From NCBI GenBank assembly GCA_049968235.1, contig JBMFRC010000032.1, positions 1-24,300 on the forward strand: a stretch of DNA of 24,300 bases, written 5' to 3'. Both the position numbers and the translations under genes were made by a program. The stretch comes from Candidatus Hydrogenedens sp. Lineage in GTDB: Bacteria > Hydrogenedentota > Hydrogenedentia > Hydrogenedentales > Hydrogenedentaceae. Each line of letters starts with the position of its first letter. The first letter of the stretch is position 1. Under the pieces are notes generated by a model. It was given only the letters and a program-made list of their open reading frames with translations, was not told the DNA's origin and did no database searches. Shown here piece by piece: positions 3,711 through 18,236 of the stretch.

Positions 3711-5393
3711 TTAGAAATTCAAATTCTTTTTTAATTCCTGAATTTTGCGAATCTGCTCTTTTACTTCTTTGATGAGTTTTTCATATTCTACAAACGGATT
3801 CATAATATCCGGCAGGCAATCGATAAACTGTTTCATCATTTTTTTTCGCACACCTCTTGCACTAATATATACAACCTTATCATATATCCAGAAACTAACC
3901 CATATACTAATTAAAAATACAATACAAGAATGAATAATAAAATTTGCTCCTTGATAATAACCCAGGAAATAGCCCGGAATAATTTGCCAGAAAAAATATA
4001 CCAATACCGTATACATAGGTACATAAAACAATTCCACTAAAAAATAGTTTGACAGACACCTTGCCTTCTTTACGAGATAAGAATCCACTCGCTCTTTCAA
4101 GAAATCAACTCCACTCTTGAAAAAATTTGATACAAAATTTTCAGATATAGATGGAACAGCATCTTTGCGAATCTGGGCTTTATCGAGAGCAAAGGCAAGG
4201 TCATATTGAACATTTTCTAATTCACGATTACATTTGTTTGATATTTGCATTGCTATTTCATGAACAATCTCATTAATTTTCCTTTCAAAATAAGTCATCT
4301 CTTCTTTATGGGGTTGAACCATCTCTCTTACAATGTTCCATGGACGGATTACTTTAGAAAGGGTTCTCAAAACACCGGATAAACGATTCCGTATCTGTGC
4401 AAGTAATAAAAAAATACCATGTAATTCAAATGCAATTTCATCCTTCAACAGATGGTAGAAGGTCCCTGCCTCCTTTCCAAACTCTGTCCGAATGATTCGT
4501 GCCTGTTGTTTTACTAATTCTACTTTTTTCCTATCTATAAATTCTTTCATTTCATTGACTGCAGGCTCCGTTTCCTGCAAAAAATCATCTATTCTCGCTA
4601 TCATCTTTCCTATCAACCCATGAACATTTGCCGTTTTTATCTGACGGATTTTTGTATCGGTAAGTTGTTGGGCAAGGAAATTTTCTAACTTTGTAAAATC
4701 AAATTCATTTGTTTCCGTATCCTCCGATTTTGTTCCTAATTTCCTATTCAATGCACGAAGTGCATTTATACAAAAATAAGCAAGCGGTTCTATCCCATCC
4801 AATCTTAATCTCTTTAACCAGTCATCCATGATAGATGGAATTTCTGATGTCATCTTTGTTTCCACCAGAACAAAACCCCGTTCTTTACTCACTTCACGAA
4901 TGATACTCCATGTTGCTTCTTCAAGGTATTTATCTCCATTGCCACAAAGCAGGATAAGGTCACATTTTTCTATCATCTTCTTTGTAAAATTGCGATGCTC
5001 CTTAATAACAGTATCGGTATCAGGGGTATCAATAAGAACAATATTATCGAGAGCGGAGCGGGCATATAATTCGCATTCTCCCTTCAATTCCGAATACGGT
5101 TCCCAATCCGGAGGATAATAGATAATAGGTCTATTTGTGCAGGGTCTCATTTCTGATGTCCTTGCAATTTTATCGCCAGCAATAGCATTAATCAGTGTTG
5201 ATTTACCTACCCCTGAACCGCCTACAATTGCAACGATTAATAGAGCATCAATTTTACTACTTCTTTCTTTTATTTCTTTAATACCCCCTTTTAACTTCTC
5301 CGCTATCGGTAAGAAACCTTCCCAATTCCCTTTATAATCCGCTATCTCTTCCAATTGATGGATAATTTTTTCTAAGTTTGCTTTAGGGAACAT
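3711..5393 (-). CDS. Bacterial dynamin-like GTPase B (Dynamin_N-type G domain plus helical stalk plus C-terminal two-helix membrane hairpin)
   Basis: G1 is GGSGVGKST and G3 is DTPD. The G4-equivalent is TKMT (aligned to NKVD in the upstream paralogue). A long helical region follows, then two hydrophobic helices (LVELFYVPMYTVLVYFFWQII... and FIIHSCIVFLISIWVSFWIY) near the C-terminus. The GAGGAG Shine-Dalgarno overlaps the stop of the upstream GTPase, with a 12-nt gap. Confidence 0.8.
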   Translation of the reverse strand: MFPKANLEKIIHQLEEIADYKGNWEGFLPIAEKLKGGIKEIKERSSKIDALLIVAIVGGSGVGKSTLINAIAGDKIARTSEMRPCTNRPIIYYPPDWEPYSELKGECELYARSALDNIVLIDTPDTDTVIKEHRNFTKKMIEKCDLILLCGNGDKYLEEATWSIIREVSKERGFVLVETKMTSEIPSIMDDWLKRLRLDGIEPLAYFCINALRALNRKLGTKSEDTETNEFDFTKLENFLAQQLTDTKIRQIKTANVHGLIGKMIARIDDFLQETEPAVNEMKEFIDRKKVELVKQQARIIRTEFGKEAGTFYHLLKDEIAFELHGIFLLLAQIRNRLSGVLRTLSKVIRPWNIVREMVQPHKEEMTYFERKINEIVHEIAMQISNKCNRELENVQYDLAFALDKAQIRKDAVPSISENFVSNFFKSGVDFLKERVDSYLVKKARCLSNYFLVELFYVPMYTVLVYFFWQIIPGYFLGYYQGANFIIHSCIVFLISIWVSFWIYDKVVYISARGVRKKMMKQFIDCLPDIMNPFVEYEKLIKEVKEQIRKIQELKKNLNF

Positions 5394-5405: not shown

Positions 5406-7229
5406 TTATGATTTTTGCTCTTCTATAATCTCATTGTTCTGTAGGCTATCTATTTGCAATTGCTCTATATTTCCCTCTTGCGAAATAAATCCCCCATTAA
5501 AAATATTCCGAACTTCTTTATCAAATTCCTCTGCAAAACTTATATATTTATATATATCCTGTAAAACATACTGTAGAACTTCTTCCTTTAATATCTGCTG
5601 AAGTTCTCCCTGTTTCTCTATTATCCATTTTTCATAAAGTGAATTTATGCTCTTCTGGAATCTTTTATATTCAACAGTTTCAATAAATGCCGAACCTCCA
5701 AGCATTCCTCCTCCAGCTATTATTTCCGCCCAGGGTCCAACATATGGCATTCCCCAAAACATGGAAATCATACCCGCACCCAAAAGCAGAAAAGACATAA
5801 TTCGCTTGCCATAAAAGCCATTCAAATTCGGAGAATCTAAAAAATCGGCGACAATCTTTTCAATTTCTTTTTGTATCCATTCAGGTTTTACAGAGAGCGC
5901 GTTTTCCATTCGTGTAATGATTTTCATTTTTACTACATCTCGATTGTTATGTAATTCATGCAATCGTTTATTTATATTTTCATCTATGTAATCAATATCG
6001 GAACTAAATTCTAATTTCAGCAACCAATCCAAGAGTTCATTAAAACATTTTTCTATCATTTCATTATGTTTTTGTTTTATCTCTACTTCTGCCCCTTCTG
6101 TGCTTATTTCCAACTTCTTGATTTCACTTCGATATCCGGAAAAAATAGAGGTGGGGAATAAAATCAAGTATGTAAAATAACCAATATGTTTCCTTAACTC
6201 GTATTTAATTTCTTCTACTAACCGAATCCAGCGGAATGGGATAAACTCCCTACTGATAATGGTATTTTCCAGATAATCTTCACAGAATCTTACCTTTGAT
6301 AGGGAAATATCTAAAAGTTTTAAAAATTTATTCTTATACCATTGTCCAAATTTTTCTTGAAAACTACTTATGGTTTTTTCTAAGATTTTTACTTTTGTTT
6401 CCTGCACAGGGAAAGAATAAATATACTCCCTTAATTCGGGAGCAACTTCTGTCAGCGGTTTAATAGGAGCATTTAAATAATTTTCATTGTAAGGATATTT
6501 AGGAAAGTAAAAACGGGGCAGATTATCATCCATTCCTACTTTTTTCATAAATTCTCTTATCTGTTTGTCTGCAATTTGAAGTGCTTTGGGATTATCAATA
6601 TCAACCTTGTTCATCACAGGAATCACGATCTTCCCTTCTTCATAAGCATGTCGGAAAAATTTGATTACCGCATCATCCATATACTTAGAATCATTTGTAA
6701 CCGCAATAATAATATCCCCAGCGGATACAATTTTATCTGCTATCTCCCAATGTTCCTTCGCAATAGAATCAATATCCGGAGTATCTAAATACAAATAAGT
6801 ATTGGGGATAGATTTTTCTTCCTTAACTAAAAGAATATGATTCGGGAGGGAATCGCTAATTGCCTCTTCTTTACTTTTCATCTCTCTCGCTTCAAATTCA
6901 AGAAACATATTGTTATCCAAACATTGTTTCGCCTTCTGTTCAGAGGCAATAATAACAGGTCTTTTGGTCGCCGCAGCATAAGGGTCTGTTGCAGTTAATT
7001 CTTGCTTCATTAAAACATTTAATATAGTGGACTTCCCTGTATTGGTTCCTCCGGCTACAGCAACAATAAGGCATCCTTCCCTTTCTAAATGAGGAACAAG
7101 TTTCCCCAAAAATAATTTCTCCCACGCAGACAAATCTTCCCCGTTTAATACATTTAAATCCAATTCCATTATCTTATTCTTAAACCGCTTCCATACATCA
7201 GCAAACAGGTCTATCCAATTACTTTCCAT
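5406..7229 (-). CDS. Bacterial dynamin-like GTPase A (Dynamin_N-type G domain plus helical stalk plus membrane hairpin)
   Basis: G1 is GGTNTGKST, G3 is DTPD and G4 is NKVD, with dynamin-like spacing. At 607 aa it has a helical middle region and a hydrophobic paddle (IMSFLLLGAGMISMFWGMPYVGPWAEIIAGGGMLGG). An AGAGGGAG Shine-Dalgarno lies 5 nt upstream of the ATG at 7229. Confidence 0.8.
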   Translation of the reverse strand: MESNWIDLFADVWKRFKNKIMELDLNVLNGEDLSAWEKLFLGKLVPHLEREGCLIVAVAGGTNTGKSTILNVLMKQELTATDPYAAATKRPVIIASEQKAKQCLDNNMFLEFEAREMKSKEEAISDSLPNHILLVKEEKSIPNTYLYLDTPDIDSIAKEHWEIADKIVSAGDIIIAVTNDSKYMDDAVIKFFRHAYEEGKIVIPVMNKVDIDNPKALQIADKQIREFMKKVGMDDNLPRFYFPKYPYNENYLNAPIKPLTEVAPELREYIYSFPVQETKVKILEKTISSFQEKFGQWYKNKFLKLLDISLSKVRFCEDYLENTIISREFIPFRWIRLVEEIKYELRKHIGYFTYLILFPTSIFSGYRSEIKKLEISTEGAEVEIKQKHNEMIEKCFNELLDWLLKLEFSSDIDYIDENINKRLHELHNNRDVVKMKIITRMENALSVKPEWIQKEIEKIVADFLDSPNLNGFYGKRIMSFLLLGAGMISMFWGMPYVGPWAEIIAGGGMLGGSAFIETVEYKRFQKSINSLYEKWIIEKQGELQQILKEEVLQYVLQDIYKYISFAEEFDKEVRNIFNGGFISQEGNIEQLQIDSLQNNEIIEEQKS

Positions 7230-13433: not shown

Positions 13434-14420
13434 TTAATTGTTTTTGATGGCTATTTTATTGAGTTTTTCAAGTATTTGTTCCGCTTGTGTCATTATATCG
13501 TTAATAATCTCTGCTATACTCTTTATTTCGTAAATTCTACCAACGACCTGACCGCAAGCAATACATCCACGGTTTACATCTCCACTAAGATACGCCTCTC
13601 GCCCTACCTTACCCGAGATAACCGGCAAAAGTTCCTCAAGTGTCGCTCCTTCCTTCTCCATATTTGCAACCGTCATAGCCGCTTCATTCTTTATTATCCT
13701 CGCCGGATTGCGAATAGAGCGTTCTACAACCATAGTATCTGTTTCCTGCGCCTGTACGAGCCACCGCTTAAAATTTTCATGCATAGGACATTCCTTCGAA
13801 GCCATAAATCGTGTCCCCATAAGAATGGCTTCCGCACCTAAACATAAAGCGGAAATTAATCCTTTACCATCACAAAATCCTCCCGCAGCAACAACAGGAA
13901 TTGATACCGTCTCGGCAGTTTTCGGTAATGCAATGAGTGTCGGGACTTCATTCATTCCCGGATGACCACCACATTCAAAACCTACGATGGTTACCGCATC
14001 TACACCAACTCGCTCCGCTTTCTGGGCAAAACGCACTGCTGGAACTTTGTGAATGACCTTCACCCCAGCAGATTTTAGTTTCGGTAGATACGGTTCCGGA
14101 TTCCTTCCTGCAGTTTCCACTACAGGGATTCCCTCCTCGCAAACAATATCAACATAAGTCTCCGTCATATCATTAGGCATAATCACAGGAAGCATGGAAA
14201 TATTTACACCGAACGGTTTATCGGTCATATCACGCGTCCTTCTGATTTCTGCCCGTAATTCTTCTCCACCGGGAAAAGAAACCGCCGTAATGAAACCCAT
14301 CCCACCTGCATTCGAAACAGCGGATACCATTTCTGCTTTGGCTAACCATTGTAACCCTCCCATCAAAATGGGATATTTTATGCCTAACATCTTTGTAATT
14401 CGTGTTTCAAAAGTAAACAT
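13434..14420 (-). CDS. FMN-dependent oxidoreductase of the nitronate monooxygenase / enoyl-ACP reductase II (FabK) family
   Basis: MFTFETRITKMLGIKYPILMGGLQWLA...AGGMGFI...KPFGVNI...IPVVAAGG aligns along its length with S. pneumoniae FabK. The start is trimmed to the ATG at 14420, which has a GAAGGAAAG Shine-Dalgarno. The track start at 14462 is a GTG with no Shine-Dalgarno. Confidence 0.85.
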   Translation of the reverse strand: MFTFETRITKMLGIKYPILMGGLQWLAKAEMVSAVSNAGGMGFITAVSFPGGEELRAEIRRTRDMTDKPFGVNISMLPVIMPNDMTETYVDIVCEEGIPVVETAGRNPEPYLPKLKSAGVKVIHKVPAVRFAQKAERVGVDAVTIVGFECGGHPGMNEVPTLIALPKTAETVSIPVVAAGGFCDGKGLISALCLGAEAILMGTRFMASKECPMHENFKRWLVQAQETDTMVVERSIRNPARIIKNEAAMTVANMEKEGATLEELLPVISGKVGREAYLSGDVNRGCIACGQVVGRIYEIKSIAEIINDIMTQAEQILEKLNKIAIKNN

Positions 14421-14465
14421 TCTTCTTTCCTTCTGTTGGTGATAATATAAATGTATAAACACATA

Positions 14466-16319
14466 CTAATCAATATCCAGTTCTTCCTCATCCAGCCCTT
14501 CCTCTGTAATTTCTTCACCTGGGAGCGATTCTTCTTCTGTTTCTTTCATAACAGACACTTTTACAATTCTCCCCATAAAACGATTTAAAATTGATTGAAT
14601 CTTCGGGTCCTGCTTTATTTCCTGTGCCAGTTCCTGTGGAACAAGGTCATTTAACAATCCCCTACGTGGAGATTGCACAGAAGATTCGTTTTGTTTTATT
14701 TCTCGATGAACAATTTGTATTTGCTTACCCGGAAAACCAAGTTCAGTAACCGTTTCGAAAATATACCGTTTTGTCTCTTCCTTCGCAAGGCATGAAAGTG
14801 CATTATTATCCGAAGGATTAACATGTATAACTACTGTTTCCGTTATTGCATCATAATGAATCTGCACATCTTTCAAAAACAACGATAATGTTGCCTTTTT
14901 TTTACTAAGTTCACGAAGCACCTTTTTAGTAAAATTTTTATCTGAATCACTCCGTTTCACGGATAAAGTACCGGATGGAGAAAGTTCCGTAGTGGGTGTA
15001 GATACTCCCGATATTGAGGATAACGATGTGGATTTTATATTTTTTTCTACCTCTGTTTTTTCAATAGAGGGGGTTTTTATCTTTTTTTTTTCCGAGGTAT
15101 TCTCCTGCTGAGAATATGCGGAACGATTTTCCTGAACCGTTTTTATCTTTGAAAATTGGATAGAGTCCTCAAGTTGCATTAATTTTTCCAGAATAGACTC
15201 AATAGATAATTCAGCACCTACCTTACAATTTTTAATAAAGAATGCTTCTAAGGCGGTTCGGTGAGAAAGTTGCGAGGTAAAATTTTGATTTAATTCCGCT
15301 AATTGCTCAACAAACTTCATAAGTTGAATTATTGTAAACTTTGCAGATTGTTCTTTTAATCGTTTTACATCTTCTTCCGGAAGGAAAAAGATATCCTCCT
15401 GTTGAGTTGTTTTAAGAATAAGTAAGTTTCTAATGTGTCGAATAAACTCCTCCACAAACTGATTCAGGTCTTTTCCGGAAGTTGAAACCTCATCAATTAT
15501 CGAGAGAACCTTAGATATATCTTTATCCTGTAACGCATATACCAACTGGTCAATCTTATCTGTCTCTATAAGCCCCAGAACATCCTGAACATCTTTATAG
15601 GTAATTTCCCCTTCACAATAGGTCATTAGTTGGTCAAGAATACTTTCCGCATCGCGAACCCCACCATCCGCAGAGCGAGCGATTGCAAACAACGCCTCTT
15701 GGGTTGCTTTCCTCTTTTCCGCTTTTACAATCTGTTCCAATAATTTTACAATATCCGGCACAGCAACTCTTCGGAAATCATACCTCTGACAGCGGGAAAT
15801 AATCGTTGCAGGGATTTTGTGGGCTTCTGTTGTGGCAAGAATAAAAACCGCATGAGCCGGAGGTTCTTCCAAAGTTTTCAACAGAGCATTAAAAGCTGCA
15901 GAAGATAACTGATGAACTTCGTCAATGATATATACCTTATATCGTGCATGTGCAGGAGCCAGACGAACCGCTTCGCGAATTTCACGGATATTATCTACAC
16001 TATTATTAGAAGCCCCATCAATTTCCTGAACATCCAAATGAGTACCCTTACTTATTTCTATACAGTTATCACACTTATCGCAAGGCTCGGGAACAGGCTT
16101 ATCCGAACTTTGACAATTTAATGCTTTAGCAAGAATACGAGCAGTAGTCGTCTTCCCAATTCCTCGCGAACCAATAAATAATAACGCATGATGTATCCGC
16201 CCAGAAGAAACAGCATTTTTTAGTGTTCGGGTAATATGTTCCTGTCCAACGACCTCATCAAATTGTTGAGGTCTCCATTTTCGAGCAAGAACATGATATA
16301 CATCATTCGGTTTCGGCAT
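14466..16319 (-). CDS. dnaX: DNA polymerase III subunits tau/gamma
   Basis: MPKPNDVYHVLARKWRPQQFDEVVGQEHI...GSRGIGKTTTARILAKALNC with a Zn-finger CDKCDNC, clamp-loader AAA+ motifs and an acidic C-terminus. The start is set at the ATG at 16319. The track extension to 16391 begins at a GTG and runs into the SRP RNA gene. Confidence 0.95.
   Translation of the reverse strand: MPKPNDVYHVLARKWRPQQFDEVVGQEHITRTLKNAVSSGRIHHALLFIGSRGIGKTTTARILAKALNCQSSDKPVPEPCDKCDNCIEISKGTHLDVQEIDGASNNSVDNIREIREAVRLAPAHARYKVYIIDEVHQLSSAAFNALLKTLEEPPAHAVFILATTEAHKIPATIISRCQRYDFRRVAVPDIVKLLEQIVKAEKRKATQEALFAIARSADGGVRDAESILDQLMTYCEGEITYKDVQDVLGLIETDKIDQLVYALQDKDISKVLSIIDEVSTSGKDLNQFVEEFIRHIRNLLILKTTQQEDIFFLPEEDVKRLKEQSAKFTIIQLMKFVEQLAELNQNFTSQLSHRTALEAFFIKNCKVGAELSIESILEKLMQLEDSIQFSKIKTVQENRSAYSQQENTSEKKKIKTPSIEKTEVEKNIKSTSLSSISGVSTPTTELSPSGTLSVKRSDSDKNFTKKVLRELSKKKATLSLFLKDVQIHYDAITETVVIHVNPSDNNALSCLAKEETKRYIFETVTELGFPGKQIQIVHREIKQNESSVQSPRRGLLNDLVPQELAQEIKQDPKIQSILNRFMGRIVKVSVMKETEEESLPGEEITEEGLDEEELDID
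15081..15091 (-). other. Candidate programmed -1 frameshift / transcriptional-slippage site in dnaX (mRNA G GAA AAA AAA AAG AUA)
   Basis: Ten consecutive T on the plus strand (15082..15091) give A10 followed by G in the dnaX mRNA, containing the A AAA AAG heptamer used by E. coli dnaX. It falls at residue about 411-413 of 617, the canonical gamma/tau boundary. The -1 frame stops after 6 codons (UGA at 15063..15061) and the other shifted frame stops after 1 codon. Confidence 0.5.
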
Positions 16320-16349
16320 AAATATATCCCTGCCATTTATGTAAAAAGT

Positions 16350-16622
16350 GCTCGCGCACCCACCTTCGAACGATACGCCCAGAACGACCACGGAGCAGTT
16401 AGCTCGGGCCCGGCGACCCTACAGCACACAGACAGAATCAACTACGGCTGCTTCCTTCCGGACCTGACCGGGTTTGTTGCCTGCCTGTTGAGTAGGACCA
16501 AGCCGTCAACACCACTTACTCCGCGCCAGCTAAAGGACATACCGCCCTCGGGAGGGAATTCAGCCTCGCTAAAGCGGATTTGCGAGTTCAGGAACGCCGC
16601 TTCGTTCCCACCTAGCGCGAGC
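16350..16622 (-). ncRNA. ffs: Signal recognition particle RNA, long Bacillus-type with Alu domain (about 273 nt)
   Basis: The minus strand carries the universally conserved domain IV sequence GGUCAGGUCCGGAAGGAAGCAGCC. It also has blocks near-identical to B. subtilis scRNA (UAAGUGGUGUUGACG, AAUCCGCU..GAAUUCCCUCCCGAGG, GGGCCCGAGCUAACUGCU). The 5' GCUCGCGC pairs with the 3' GCGCGAGC to close the terminal helix. The region is a GC-rich island in AT-rich DNA, sits directly upstream of dnaX (classic synteny), and is preceded by a consensus promoter. Confidence 0.85.
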
Positions 16623-16628
16623 ACTATT

Positions 16629-16657
16629 ATTATAACGATTTTCCAGCAAAAAGGCAA
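16629..16657 (-). promoter_or_regulatory. Sigma-70-like promoter of the SRP RNA gene
   Basis: The minus strand reads TTGCCT (complement of 16652..16657), a 17-nt spacer, then TATAAT (complement of 16629..16634). This places the transcription start about 7 nt downstream at the G of GCUCGCGC. Confidence 0.5.
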
Positions 16658-16676
16658 CAAAGGATTATTGTATATT

Positions 16677-18236
16677 TTACTGCCCAATTCTTAAAATTTT
16701 ACTAAATTTTTGTATAGATGGTAAGTGGTTTGCATTTAAAAACATAGGGAAGGTTTTGATTGTACCCCATATAGACCTTCGCTGAGAACGGTAAATCATT
16801 CTTAGTGCGGTCAAAGGCATAAGAACTGTTTTTGTAATAATATCCATGCCAATAATAATTGATTTTAAAACCAAACTCCGGGGATTCTTTTTTAGTCTTT
16901 CTACGAGAGCCATAATTATTTTGGGTGAAACAAAACAGGCAGAACGAATAAGGCGGTTATCTTCCGTTGTCTTCCAGAGAAAAAAGTCTTCATATACAAC
17001 AGTATTTTCCTTTATGATACCTTCCTCTATAGCTCTTGTGCGTATTTCAGTTCCGGGATAAAACCGTAGAGAGAAGAACAAAGGCATAAATGGTCGGGGC
17101 GTTTTTGATAATGTAATAACAGTATTTAATCGGTCTTCTGGCGTTTCAAATGGATTATCTAAAATAATGTCGTAATAAATACCCACAGGATACTCCGAAA
17201 CAATTTGTGCTGCTTTTAAGAATGTTTCCGATTTTGTAGGGCGTTTATAAATCTCTAAACAGGTACGGTCACTTCCACTTTGCAAGCCCATATTGGTCCA
17301 GGTCATCCCCGCATCTACAAGAATAGACATTCGTTCATGGGATACCTCTCGAGCCGTTGTTTTCGCAATAAAAGGTAAACCGATACGCTTTTTATAAACT
17401 TCGCAAAATTCCTTTATATATTCCATATCGGATGCAAAGAAACAGTCATCAATAATGTCCACATAAAAAATCGGGGGACCTTCTTTCATCGCCAATTCTA
17501 ATTCCCGGATAAAATGCTGAACACTCCGATGTCTCACAGGCCAGGTCCCATATAATTTACGCAAAAATCGATTACAACAATAAGCACACCCGTAAGGACA
17601 ACCCCGTGAAGTCATGATTTTATAGACCTGCCCACGATACCTCTTATACCGCATGAGATGTTCAACCCGTACAGGTTCTATTTTTGTCCCTGTATCCACA
17701 TAACTACGCTCAGGTATTTGTCTCAAAGGAGGGAGCATATCTAGGTCTGAAATAAGGGGAGAAATAGGATTTGTTTGTAATATTCCCTCTTCATCGAAAT
17801 AGGCAAGATTATTAATTTTCTTCAGGTCATCTTTATTTGCACCACTCTTTACAGATGAAAGAAATGCTTTTAGGGACAGTTCCCCTTCACCGATACAAAC
17901 AAAGTCCGCTATCTTAGCACAGCGGTCGGGTTCTGTTGTTGCTTCAATTCCTCCCCAGATAACATAAGTTTCGGGCAACACTTCGCGAATTATACGGGTT
18001 ATTTCCGATGCAACCTGAAAATCCTCAGCAGTTAAACTGATGCCAACTACTTTTGGATTTTCTTCCATTAAAAATCTTTTTACATGTTCATGTTGATTTC
18101 TACCCGCATACTTTTTAAAGACGGGAAAATACAAAAGGACAGAATCAAATCCTTCTTGACGAAGGTATAAATGTAATCCCTTTAACCCTAAAATATCCAG
18201 ATTAGGCTGAGCAGAAACCAGACATATATCTGTCAT
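16677..18236 (-). CDS. B12-binding domain-containing radical SAM enzyme (class B radical SAM family)
   Basis: The N-terminal Rossmann-like cobalamin-binding region runs to about residue 130. It is followed by a radical SAM core with CPYGCAYC (CxxxCxxC). The protein is 519 aa. Confidence 0.85.
   Translation of the reverse strand: MTDICLVSAQPNLDILGLKGLHLYLRQEGFDSVLLYFPVFKKYAGRNQHEHVKRFLMEENPKVVGISLTAEDFQVASEITRIIREVLPETYVIWGGIEATTEPDRCAKIADFVCIGEGELSLKAFLSSVKSGANKDDLKKINNLAYFDEEGILQTNPISPLISDLDMLPPLRQIPERSYVDTGTKIEPVRVEHLMRYKRYRGQVYKIMTSRGCPYGCAYCCNRFLRKLYGTWPVRHRSVQHFIRELELAMKEGPPIFYVDIIDDCFFASDMEYIKEFCEVYKKRIGLPFIAKTTAREVSHERMSILVDAGMTWTNMGLQSGSDRTCLEIYKRPTKSETFLKAAQIVSEYPVGIYYDIILDNPFETPEDRLNTVITLSKTPRPFMPLFFSLRFYPGTEIRTRAIEEGIIKENTVVYEDFFLWKTTEDNRLIRSACFVSPKIIMALVERLKKNPRSLVLKSIIIGMDIITKTVLMPLTALRMIYRSQRRSIWGTIKTFPMFLNANHLPSIQKFSKILRIGQ

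What the first reader, a model, noticed from the sequence alone, without database searches (positions are those of the whole stretch)
15061..15092. A10G slippery run in dnaX at the gamma/tau boundary with immediate out-of-frame stops
The dnaX mRNA contains G GAA AAA AAA AAG AUA (ten A then G; plus-strand T10 at 15082..15091). It includes the A AAA AAG heptamer that drives the -1 frameshift in E. coli dnaX. It lies at codons about 411-413 of 617, proportionally where gamma ends in E. coli (431 of 643). A -1 shift reads D K N P L Y then UGA (stop at 15063..15061). The other shifted frame hits UAA after one codon. A CCUCU...AGAGG hairpin lies just downstream. This fits either ribosomal frameshifting or Thermus-style transcriptional slippage producing a truncated gamma subunit.
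Basis: partly seen in the sequence, partly recalled or inferred. Interest (0 to 1): 0.6.

Follow-up and report, generated by a model that had tools for sequence, protein, structure and literature searches.

The report
Conserved slippery A-run in dnaX

Summary
dnaX (16319..14466, minus strand, 617 codons) reads GAA AAA AAA AAG ATA at codons 410-414. The A10 run is at 15091..15082. The -1 frame stops at TGA 15063..15061 and the +1 frame at TAA 15079..15077.

In this window alone the run is no more than chance. Comparison makes it significant. Ten related Hydrogenedens-like dnaX genes (61-89% local identity) all carry G-A9 at the same codons. It is the longest invariant nucleotide stretch in the gene and lies in an otherwise variable linker. 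It is also the only position where all 11 genes close both shifted frames within a few codons.

The E. coli-type features are specific to this window. These are the in-phase A_AAA_AAG heptamer, an AGGAG 14 nt upstream and a weak hairpin. No RNA structure is conserved and Rfam's DnaX frameshift element does not match.

The best reading is Thermus-type transcriptional slippage. It would yield tau (69.7 kDa) plus gamma-like products of 413-419 aa (about 47 kDa). A minor ribosomal -1 contribution is possible in this lineage.

A9-A11 runs occur at this position in 19 of 80 diverse dnaX genes examined. This is a new member of a known kind, and nothing has been tested experimentally.

The parts
14466..16319 (-). 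dnaX coding sequence (tau, 617 aa, 69.7 kDa), single open frame through the slip site
   Evidence: NCBIfam dnaX equivalogs match (PRK05563 at 514 bits, TIGR02397 at 458 bits). Pfam finds delta2/AAA, lid and domain III up to residue 366. The ATG at 16319 was chosen as the start because the longer GTG ORF from 16391 overlaps the SRP RNA.
15082..15091 (-). A10 run in the mRNA sense (T10 on the plus strand), spanning codons 410-413 (GAA AAA AAA AAG); the proposed slippage tract
   Evidence: Read directly from the sequence. It is the only homopolymer of 9 or more in the window. G-A9 is invariant in 11 of 11 related genes and is the longest invariant nucleotide stretch in the gene.
15081..15087 (-). 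In-phase A_AAA_AAG heptamer (E. coli-type -1 shift site), present only in this lineage
   Evidence: The 10 relatives have ACG or ACA instead of AAG, so their run is A9 followed by C. The same in-phase heptamer occurs 8 more times in the window's genes.
15077..15079 (-). UAA stop in the +1 frame (read after loss of one A): product ...E K K R stop, 413 aa
   Evidence: A UAA or UAG stop sits at exactly this position in 11 of 11 relatives, although the overlapped residues vary (I/V/L then K/E/D). Only 22% of I/V/L codons in these genes create such a stop.
15061..15063 (-). UGA stop in the -1 frame (read after gain of one A or a ribosomal -1 shift): product ...E K K K D K N P L Y stop, 419 aa
   Evidence: A -1-frame stop lies 3-8 codons after the last all-A codon in 11 of 11 relatives.
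15102..15106 (-). Shine-Dalgarno-like AGGAG, 14 nt upstream of the heptamer; specific to this window
   Evidence: The relatives have CAAGAG, CAAGAA, AATGTA and similar sequences at this position.
15050..15070 (-). Weak downstream hairpin CCUCU-A-UU/AA-C-AGAGG, starting 10 nt after the heptamer
   Evidence: Its energy is -5.7 kcal/mol, z = -2.2. RNAalifold finds no conserved pair across the 11 sequences. The E. coli stem-loop folded the same way gives about -19 kcal/mol and starts 5 nt after its heptamer.
15090..15123 (-). Upstream hairpin (UUCCG..UAUUCUC-AGCAG-GAGAAUA..CGGAA) whose 3' arm ends on the first two A's of the run; specific to this window
   Evidence: -14.6 kcal/mol for the 61-nt upstream segment, and z = -3.4 for the 96-nt region containing both hairpins. 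It is not conserved.

Best explanation
The A-run is a conserved programmed recoding site of the Thermus thermophilus dnaX type.

Proposed mechanism (inferred, not shown):
- RNA polymerase transcribing the T10 template tract lets the nascent A-tract realign. This produces a mixture of mRNAs with 10 A's, or with one or a few A's more or fewer.
- Ordinary translation of in-frame transcripts gives full-length tau (617 aa, 69.7 kDa).
- Transcripts with one A fewer end at UAA after ...EKKR (413 aa, 46.8 kDa).
- Transcripts with one A more end at UGA after ...EKKKDKNPLY (419 aa, 47.5 kDa).

The short products keep the ATPase, lid and domain III modules of the clamp loader. They lack the C-terminal third of tau. 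In E. coli that region binds the replicative helicase and the Pol III core, so the short products correspond to gamma.

Shown here: the sequence anatomy, its position after domain III, and strong nucleotide-level conservation of the run and of both out-of-frame stops.

Inferred: that slippage happens, at what level, and what gamma does.

In this lineage a C-to-A change (ACG to AAG) lengthened the run from A9 to A10 and created A_AAA_AAG. Some ribosomal -1 frameshifting may therefore add to the 419-aa product.
For: 1. The gene is dnaX, and the run lies about 45 codons after the end of the Pfam domain III match, in the variable linker.

2. All 10 genus-level relatives recovered from metagenomes carry GAA AAA AAA AC(G/A) (A/G/T)TA at the same aligned codons.

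3. Across the 11 genes, E-K-K is the only run of three or more codon-invariant columns. Only 33 of 295 columns with an invariant amino acid are also codon-invariant.

4. G-A9 (10 nt) is the longest invariant nucleotide stretch in the whole gene; the next longest is 8 nt. It sits in a linker where only 6 amino-acid columns between 385 and 520 are invariant.

5. Of 608 aligned codon positions, only the two at the end of the run have, in all 11 genes, a -1 stop within 8 codons and a +1 stop within 2 codons.

6. The +1 stop is kept through I/V/L and K/E/D replacements, whereas only 22% of I/V/L codons create such a stop. A site that needs both alternative frames closed fits slippage, which both adds and removes A's. 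Thermus dnaX likewise has nearby stops in both non-zero frames (PMC5009743; PMC1088944).

7. No stimulator of ribosomal frameshifting is conserved. RNAalifold finds 0 pairs upstream and 0 downstream. Rfam DnaX RF00382 gives no match even at E<=10, but scores 96.8 bits on the E. coli control.

8. Runs of 9 or more are otherwise avoided. This is the only one in the 24.3-kb window. In 57 kb of related loci, 13 lie in dnaX and 2 outside it.

9. The feature is widespread.
- A sister clade has A9 or A8 at aa 413-414 (L086, L087).
- Two other Hydrogenedentota contigs (L093, L094) have A10 followed by a 0-frame stop, with the tau C-terminus in the -1 frame. There tau can only be made by slipping.
- 19 of 80 diverse dnaX genes have a run of 9 or more A's at aa 365-435, including genes of 54-66% GC. 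Only 3 such runs lie elsewhere in those genes.
Against: - There are no transcript or protein data for this organism or any relative.
- In the window alone an A10 run is expected by chance (68 of 100 shuffles). AAA is the preferred Lys codon (368 AAA against 144 AAG).
- An in-phase A_AAA_AAA or A_AAA_AAG heptamer lies within every such run. Ribosomal -1 frameshifting therefore cannot be excluded from sequence.
- The genome is AT-rich (39% GC). Baranov et al. 2005 caution that some AT-rich bacteria may have RNA polymerases that slip less on 9 A/T.
- High-GC Hydrogenedentota dnaX genes (L001, L003, L004) lack any run, so the device is not universal in the phylum.
- The conserved peptide E-K-K-T-(I/V/L) could in principle be a protein-level motif.
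- The exact protein of this window was not found in another assembly. The A10G state rests on this one sequence.
Confidence: 0.62

Rival explanations
1. E. coli-type programmed -1 ribosomal frameshifting is the main mechanism. Ribosomes slip on A_AAA_AAG (A_AAA_AAA in relatives) and terminate at the -1 frame stop, giving the 419-aa gamma.
For: - The heptamer is in the correct phase in the window, and an in-phase A_AAA_AAA exists in all relatives.
- A -1-frame stop is conserved 3-8 codons after the last all-A codon.
- The window has AGGAG 14 nt upstream and a hairpin 10 nt downstream.
- From my own knowledge of Larsen et al. 1994, not checked here: SD-like stimulators of -1 shifting act at about 10-14 nt.
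- A_AAA_AAG alone gives about 14-16% frameshifting in E. coli cell-free systems (10.1101/2025.10.02.679949).
Against: - AAG, the AGGAG and both hairpins are absent from the 10 relatives, and no structure is conserved.
- A_AAA_AAA is much less shift-prone than A_AAA_AAG in E. coli (PMC5009743).
- The downstream hairpin is -5.7 kcal/mol, against about -19 kcal/mol for E. coli. It starts 10 nt after the heptamer rather than 5 nt.
- RF00382 does not match.
- The strictly conserved +1-frame stop has no role in a -1 shift.
- Seven other in-phase A_AAA_AAG heptamers sit in six ordinary genes of the window, plus a second one further down dnaX. The heptamer alone is evidently tolerated.
Confidence: 0.15
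2. There is no recoding. The run is a by-product of a Lys-rich linker in an AT-rich genome, or E-K-K-T-I is conserved as a peptide motif. Gamma is then absent or made another way, for example by proteolysis as in Caulobacter.
For: - A10 is not unexpected in the window.
- AAA and GAA are the preferred codons: 430 AAA against 133 AAG, and 495 GAA against 145 GAG.
- Out-of-frame stops are frequent in this gene, with median distances of 8 and 10 codons.
- High-GC relatives lack the run.
- The literature records proteolytic generation of gamma in Caulobacter.
Against: - Codon-level invariance exceeds that of the catalytic core.
- The +1 stop is conserved across amino-acid replacements.
- The site is unique among 608 positions in closing both frames in all 11 genes.
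- The same device occurs at the same place in GC-rich dnaX genes of other phyla.
- Split dnaX genes (L093, L094) need the slip to make essential tau.
Confidence: 0.1
3. The feature is a DNA-level length-variable tract (phase variation) or an assembly error at a homopolymer, rather than an RNA- or ribosome-level event.
For: - Homopolymers are prone to replication slippage and to sequencing errors.
- Related contigs show both single-ORF and split dnaX forms.
- The window's exact protein was not found in another assembly.
Against: - The window differs from its relatives by a substitution (ACG to AAG), not an indel, and the frame is intact.
- Ten independent assemblies agree on A9.
- From general knowledge: dnaX is essential, so on/off switching at the DNA level is implausible.
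Confidence: 0.03

Closest known systems
Thermus thermophilus dnaX programmed transcriptional slippage on an A9 run (Larsen et al. 2000; summarised in PMC1088944 and PMC5009743)
   Same: - Same gene.
- Tau is encoded in one open frame.
- A sense-strand A run of 9-10 lies after the gamma-equivalent part.
- Stop codons lie close by in both non-zero frames.
- No dependence on a conserved RNA structure.
   Different: - Different phylum (Hydrogenedentota), and a mesophile-like 39% GC genome.
[quoted passage not shown] - This window has A10 followed by G rather than A9.
- Slippage has not been demonstrated here.
E. coli / Salmonella dnaX -1 programmed ribosomal frameshift (A_AAA_AAG + upstream SD + downstream stem-loop; Rfam RF00382)
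   Same: - Same gene and the same outcome (gamma lacking the tau C-terminus).
- Identical in-phase heptamer in this window.
- Proportional position 413/617, against 430/643 in E. coli.
- An SD-like AGGAG lies upstream.
   Different: - The heptamer's AAG, the SD-like motif and the hairpins are not conserved in relatives.
- The hairpin is far weaker and further away.
- There is no RF00382 match.
- The -1 stop lies 6 codons after the shift rather than 1.
- The +1 frame is also closed, and conservedly so.
Two-ORF dnaX genes with A10, where tau requires slippage (Antonov et al. 2013, PMC3711429)
   Same: - A poly-A tract of 9-10 at the domain III/linker boundary of dnaX.
- The same presumed transcriptional realignment.
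- This arrangement exists in other Hydrogenedentota (L093, L094) and in Opitutia and Leptospirales dnaX genes (L042, L077, L080, L051).
   Different: In the window the zero frame stays open for 617 codons. Standard decoding therefore gives tau and slippage gives gamma, which is the reverse arrangement.
Caulobacter crescentus DnaX processing by ClpXP
   Same: It produces a gamma-like form from full-length tau, showing that bacteria make two DnaX forms by several routes.
   Different: It is post-translational and needs no slippery nucleotide tract. Nothing in the window bears on it.

Membership tests
Thermus-type dnaX transcriptional slippage site | Homopolymeric A run of 9 or more on the sense strand of dnaX | tested here: met
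   The window has A10 at 15091..15082. All 10 relatives have A9.
Thermus-type dnaX transcriptional slippage site | The run lies after the gamma-equivalent modules (domains I-III) and before the tau-specific C-terminal part | tested here: met
   The Pfam domain III match ends at residue 366 and the run is at codons 410-413. The conserved C-terminal block (G-R-I-V-K-V) follows at about residue 583.
Thermus-type dnaX transcriptional slippage site | Tau is encoded by one uninterrupted frame through the run | tested here: met
   The ORF 16319..14466 is open for 617 codons.
Thermus-type dnaX transcriptional slippage site | Stop codons lie close to the run in both non-zero frames | tested here: met
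   The +1 frame reaches UAA after one codon and the -1 frame reaches UGA after six. Both are conserved in 11 of 11 genes, and this is unique among 608 positions.
Thermus-type dnaX transcriptional slippage site | A heterogeneous A-tract length in the mRNA, and two protein products | not testable with these tools
   This needs RNA-seq or cDNA sequencing plus Western blot or mass spectrometry.
E. coli-type dnaX -1 ribosomal frameshift element (RF00382) | In-phase A_AAA_AAG heptamer | tested here: met
   It is met in the window at 15087..15081. It is absent from all 10 relatives, which have A_AAA_AAA followed by C.
E. coli-type dnaX -1 ribosomal frameshift element (RF00382) | Shine-Dalgarno-like stimulator about 10 nt upstream | tested here: inconclusive
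   AGGAG lies 14 nt upstream in the window but is not conserved in relatives. In E. coli, AGGGAG lies 10 nt upstream.
E. coli-type dnaX -1 ribosomal frameshift element (RF00382) | Stable stem-loop starting 5-6 nt downstream of the heptamer | tested here: not met
   There is only a -5.7 kcal/mol hairpin 10 nt downstream, against about -19 kcal/mol in E. coli. RNAalifold finds no conserved pairs. The covariance model gives no hit at E<=10, while the E. coli positive control scores 96.8 bits.
Two-ORF dnaX (tau by slippage; Antonov 2013) | Zero-frame stop directly after the A run, with the tau C-terminal domains in the -1 frame | tested here: not met
   In the window the zero frame continues to codon 617. 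The feature is met in the related-phylum contigs L093 and L094.
Proteolytic gamma (Caulobacter type) | ClpXP-dependent partial degradation of tau | not testable with these tools
   No sequence signature was available to test.

The most novel reading that the evidence does not exclude
This lineage is an evolutionary intermediate between the two known dnaX recoding mechanisms. An ancestral A9-C transcriptional slippage site was converted by one substitution into A10-G. That created the E. coli heptamer. An AGGAG 14 nt upstream and hairpins flanking the run accompany it. Gamma would then be made by RNA polymerase slippage and ribosomal -1 frameshifting together at one site. A broader version of this reading is that single-ORF A9/A10 sites are present in roughly a quarter of diverse dnaX genes, far more than the literature I read describes.
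Probability: 0.15. Interest if true: 0.5.

Novelty: new member of a known kind. Interest (0 to 1): 0.3.

Why it matters
- Two forms of DnaX (tau and gamma) are made by at least three unrelated routes in bacteria, and why gamma is needed remains debated.
- This finding places an uncultured candidate phylum (Hydrogenedentota) among the users of the poly-A route.
- Conservation here is clean enough to serve as a template for annotating such sites. Standard pipelines annotate only tau, or split the gene.
- The survey made along the way suggests the single-ORF poly-A arrangement is common across several other bacterial phyla (19 of 80 genes). It is invisible to frameshift finders that look for broken ORFs.
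- It does not open a new mechanism.

Tried and rejected
- **Rfam.** A gathering-threshold scan of the window, and a permissive scan (E<=10) of 14900..15250, gave no DnaX element, only noise hits.
- **Conserved structure.** RNAalifold on 60 nt upstream and 60 nt downstream of the run in 11 genes predicted no pairs. I therefore dropped the idea of a conserved stimulatory hairpin, whether acting on the ribosome or on the nascent RNA.
- **Genome-contig scan.** I reused those loci as a background sample.
- **Independent copy of the window's protein.** The exact-sequence look-up found nothing, so the A10G state could not be replicated.
- **tRNA genes.** None lie in the window. Whether the organism has one or two tRNA-Lys species, which bears on AAG slipperiness, could not be checked.
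- **Upstream hairpin as a Roseiflexus-IS630-like stimulator of polymerase slippage**. I did not adopt this because the hairpin is absent from the relatives.
- **Second A8 run at 14896..14903 as a second site.** It is not conserved in position among the close relatives.
Full report
**The observation**

The minus strand at 15125..15030 reads ...CAG CAG GAG AAU ACC UCG GAA AAA AAA AAG AUA AAA ACC CCC UCU AUU GAA AAA ACA GAG G....
- The ten A's occupy 15091..15082 and the following G is at 15081.
- Counted from the ATG at 16319, GAA is codon 410 and AAG is codon 413 of 617.
- The heptamer A_AAA_AAG (15087..15081) is in the phase needed for tandem -1 slippage.
- The -1 frame reads D K N P L Y and stops at UGA 15063..15061.
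- The +1 frame reads AGA then UAA at 15079..15077.
- The CCUCU/AGAGG hairpin lies at 15070..15050.

**Gene and organism**

The ORF is dnaX.
- NCBIfam matches are PRK05563 at 514 bits and TIGR02397 at 458 bits.
- Pfam finds the delta2/AAA module, the lid, and domain III ending at residue 366.
- The mechanical ORF starts at a GTG at 16391. That start overlaps a bacterial large SRP RNA at 16352..16620 on the same strand (172.8 bits). The ATG at 16319, which begins the conserved MPKPND N-terminus, is the likely start.
- The closest database proteins are labelled Candidatus Hydrogenedens / Hydrogenedentota.
- The window has 39% GC.

**Significance within the window alone**

Taken alone, the run is not significant.
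- 68 of 100 dinucleotide-preserving shuffles of the window contain an A10/T10 run.
- AAAAAAG occurs 24 times.
- The in-phase A_AAA_AAG heptamer occurs nine times in 17 genes. Seven of these lie in six ordinary genes outside dnaX.
- 4.9% of codon positions in this dnaX have equally close stops in both shifted frames.

What stands out in the window is only that this is the longest homopolymer and the sole run of 9 or more.

**Comparative evidence in close relatives**

I recovered the DNA of ten related dnaX genes from metagenome assemblies (L081-L085, L088-L092). They share 61-89% amino-acid identity with the window around the site.
- All ten read GAA AAA AAA AC(G/A) (A/G/T)TA (A/G).. at the aligned codons. 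That is G-A9-C, and the window differs by a single substitution, ACG to AAG.
- In a codon alignment of the 11 genes, only 33 of 295 columns with an invariant amino acid also have an invariant codon. E-K-K at the run is the only stretch of three or more consecutive codon-invariant columns in the gene.
- G-A9 (10 nt) is the longest invariant nucleotide stretch. The ATPase core reaches only 8 nt. The run nevertheless lies in a linker where just six amino-acid columns between 385 and 520 are invariant.
- The +1-frame stop (UAA or UAG) is at exactly the same place in all 11 genes, although the residues it overlaps change (Ile/Val/Leu, then Lys/Glu/Asp).
- Only about 30% of Ile, Val or Leu codons in these genes are xUA, and only 22% of them create such a stop.
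- A -1-frame stop follows 3-8 codons after the last all-A codon in all 11 genes.
- Of 608 aligned codon positions, the two at the end of the run are the only ones where every gene closes the -1 frame within 8 codons and the +1 frame within 2.

That test is failed decisively.

**Ribosome or RNA polymerase?**

The E. coli-like features are private to this window.
- The relatives have C, not G, after the run.
- They have CAAGAG, CAAGAA or AATGTA where the window has CAGGAG.
- They have no equivalent of either hairpin.
- RNAalifold predicts no conserved pair in the 60 nt upstream or downstream.
- The window's downstream hairpin is -5.7 kcal/mol and starts 10 nt after the heptamer. The E. coli stem-loop, folded the same way, is about -19 kcal/mol and starts 5 nt after its heptamer.
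- Rfam's DnaX frameshift element finds nothing in the window even at E<=10. It scores 96.8 bits on the E. coli control.

What is conserved is a run of at least nine A's and closure of both alternative frames. That is the description of Thermus thermophilus dnaX.
- There, RNA polymerase slippage on A9 gives mRNAs with variable A number.
- Nearby stops in both non-zero frames yield gamma at about 1:1 with tau (PMC5009743; PMC1088944).

A -1 ribosomal shift has no use for the +1-frame stop. I therefore favour transcriptional slippage (confidence 0.62) over ribosomal frameshifting as the main route (0.15). Every such run also contains an in-phase A_AAA_AAA, so sequence alone cannot exclude the ribosome.

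In this window the AAG codon, the AGGAG at 14 nt and the flanking hairpins could add some ribosomal shifting. The 96-nt region holding both hairpins folds better than all 200 shuffles (z = -3.4).

**Predicted products**

| Transcript or event | Product | C-terminus |
|---|---|---|
| In-frame (A10) | tau, 617 aa, 69.7 kDa | full length |
| One A fewer | 413 aa, 46.8 kDa | ...EKKR |
| Two A's more | 414 aa, 46.9 kDa | ...EKKKR |
| One A more, or a -1 ribosomal shift | 419 aa, 47.5 kDa | ...EKKKDKNPLY |
| Two A's fewer | 418 aa, 47.4 kDa | ...EKKDKNPLY |

- The short forms retain domains I-III and lose the C-terminal third.
- A gain of one A and a -1 ribosomal shift give the same protein. A Western blot therefore cannot separate the mechanisms.
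- The ...EKKR end, or cDNA length profiling, can separate them.

**Wider distribution**

- A sister clade of low-GC Hydrogenedentota has A9 (GUA AAA AAA AAU, L086) or A8 followed by G (L087) at residues 413-414, again with close out-of-frame stops.
- Two other Hydrogenedentota contigs (L093, L094) have A10 followed within two codons by a zero-frame stop. The tau C-terminal region, including the VVDIFKGRI block, continues in the -1 frame. This is the two-ORF arrangement of Antonov et al. 2013, in which tau itself depends on slippage.
- High-GC members (L001, L003, L004) have no run.
- Among 80 diverse dnaX genes returned by the genome scan, 19 carry a run of 9 or more A's at residues 365-435. 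Only three such runs lie elsewhere in those genes.
- Four of the 19 are of the two-ORF type (L042, L051, L077, L080).
- Many of the 19 genes have 54-66% GC, where such runs cannot be compositional.

**Comparison with what is known, and novelty**

- The site meets every sequence-testable criterion of the Thermus-type class.
- It fails the stem-loop criterion of the E. coli class.
- It is not of the two-ORF type.

It is therefore a new member of a known kind, in a phylum where it has not been described in the papers I could read. The mildly unusual point is the derived A10-G state, which superimposes the E. coli heptamer on a Thermus-type run. I give a probability of 0.15 that this reflects a real dual or transitional mechanism.

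**Caveats**

- All evidence is comparative.
- The A10G state rests on this single sequence.
- The tRNA-Lys complement is unknown.
- Some AT-rich bacteria may slip less on A9.
- The 11 sequences are related, so the counts are not independent events. The comparison with the rest of the same alignment controls for this.

Noticed in passing
window 16352-16620 (-): A bacterial large SRP RNA gene (Rfam RF01854, 172.8 bits) lies immediately upstream of dnaX on the same strand. The mechanical 641-aa ORF starting at GTG 16391 overlaps it, so the ATG at 16319 is the likely dnaX start.
   Followed up: partly
window 14896-14903 (-), dnaX codons 473-476: There is a second A-run (A8) forming another in-phase A_AAA_AAG (AGU AAA AAA AAG GCA) further down the tau linker. 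Its shifted-frame stops are 14 and 7 codons away. L084 and L091 have a second A9 at residues 453-455 and L092 an A8, but not at the aligned position.
   Followed up: partly
window 15090-15123 (-): A window-specific hairpin (7-bp UAUUCUC/GAGAAUA plus outer UUCCG/CGGAA) has its 3' arm ending on the first two A's of the run. Its geometry recalls the nascent-RNA hairpins that stimulate polymerase slippage in Roseiflexus IS630. It is absent from all relatives.
   Followed up: partly
L081-L092, codon after the A9 run: The Thr codon that ends the run is ACG in 9 of 10 relatives, although ACG is the rarest Thr codon in these genes (69 of 461). I have no explanation.
   Followed up: no
L093:2722-2731 and L094:2695-2704: Other Hydrogenedentota dnaX genes are split at an A10 run. 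The zero-frame stop comes two codons later and the tau C-terminal domains lie in the -1 frame. This is the two-ORF arrangement in which tau needs slippage.
   Followed up: yes
L002 (about 2550-2700) and L095:1503-1512: L002 (58% GC, Hydrogenedentota) has a dnaX ORF ending at residue 407 with the tau C-terminus in the -1 frame, but no A run nearby. L095 has A10 at residue 394, but the -1 frame has a stop before the tau part; this contig has 1.9x coverage. Either could be a different recoding site or an assembly error.
   Followed up: no
L008, L022, L030 (Kiritimatiellales, Lentisphaerae and Pontiella dnaX): These GC-rich dnaX genes carry two A9/A10 runs 21-26 codons apart (residues about 382 and about 404-408). 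Each run has close stops in both shifted frames.
   Followed up: no
L001-L080: 19 of 80 diverse dnaX genes have a run of 9 or more A's at residues 365-435, and 15 of them are single-ORF (Thermus-like). The papers read here describe only Thermus and the two-ORF set, so the single-ORF type may be under-reported.
   Followed up: partly
window 13434-18236 and loci L086, L087, L089-L092: Gene order is largely conserved around dnaX: B12-binding radical SAM gene, (SRP RNA), dnaX, FabK-like/NMO oxidoreductase, MsbA-like ABC exporter. The usual ybaB-recR partners of dnaX are not adjacent. The radical SAM protein's best NCBIfam hit (TIGR04072, 'ladder' lipid rSAM) is far below its cutoff.
   Followed up: no
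window 3711-5393 and 5406-7229 (-): There are two tandem large P-loop GTPase genes with only weak matches to Era, Der and dynamin-like families.
   Followed up: no
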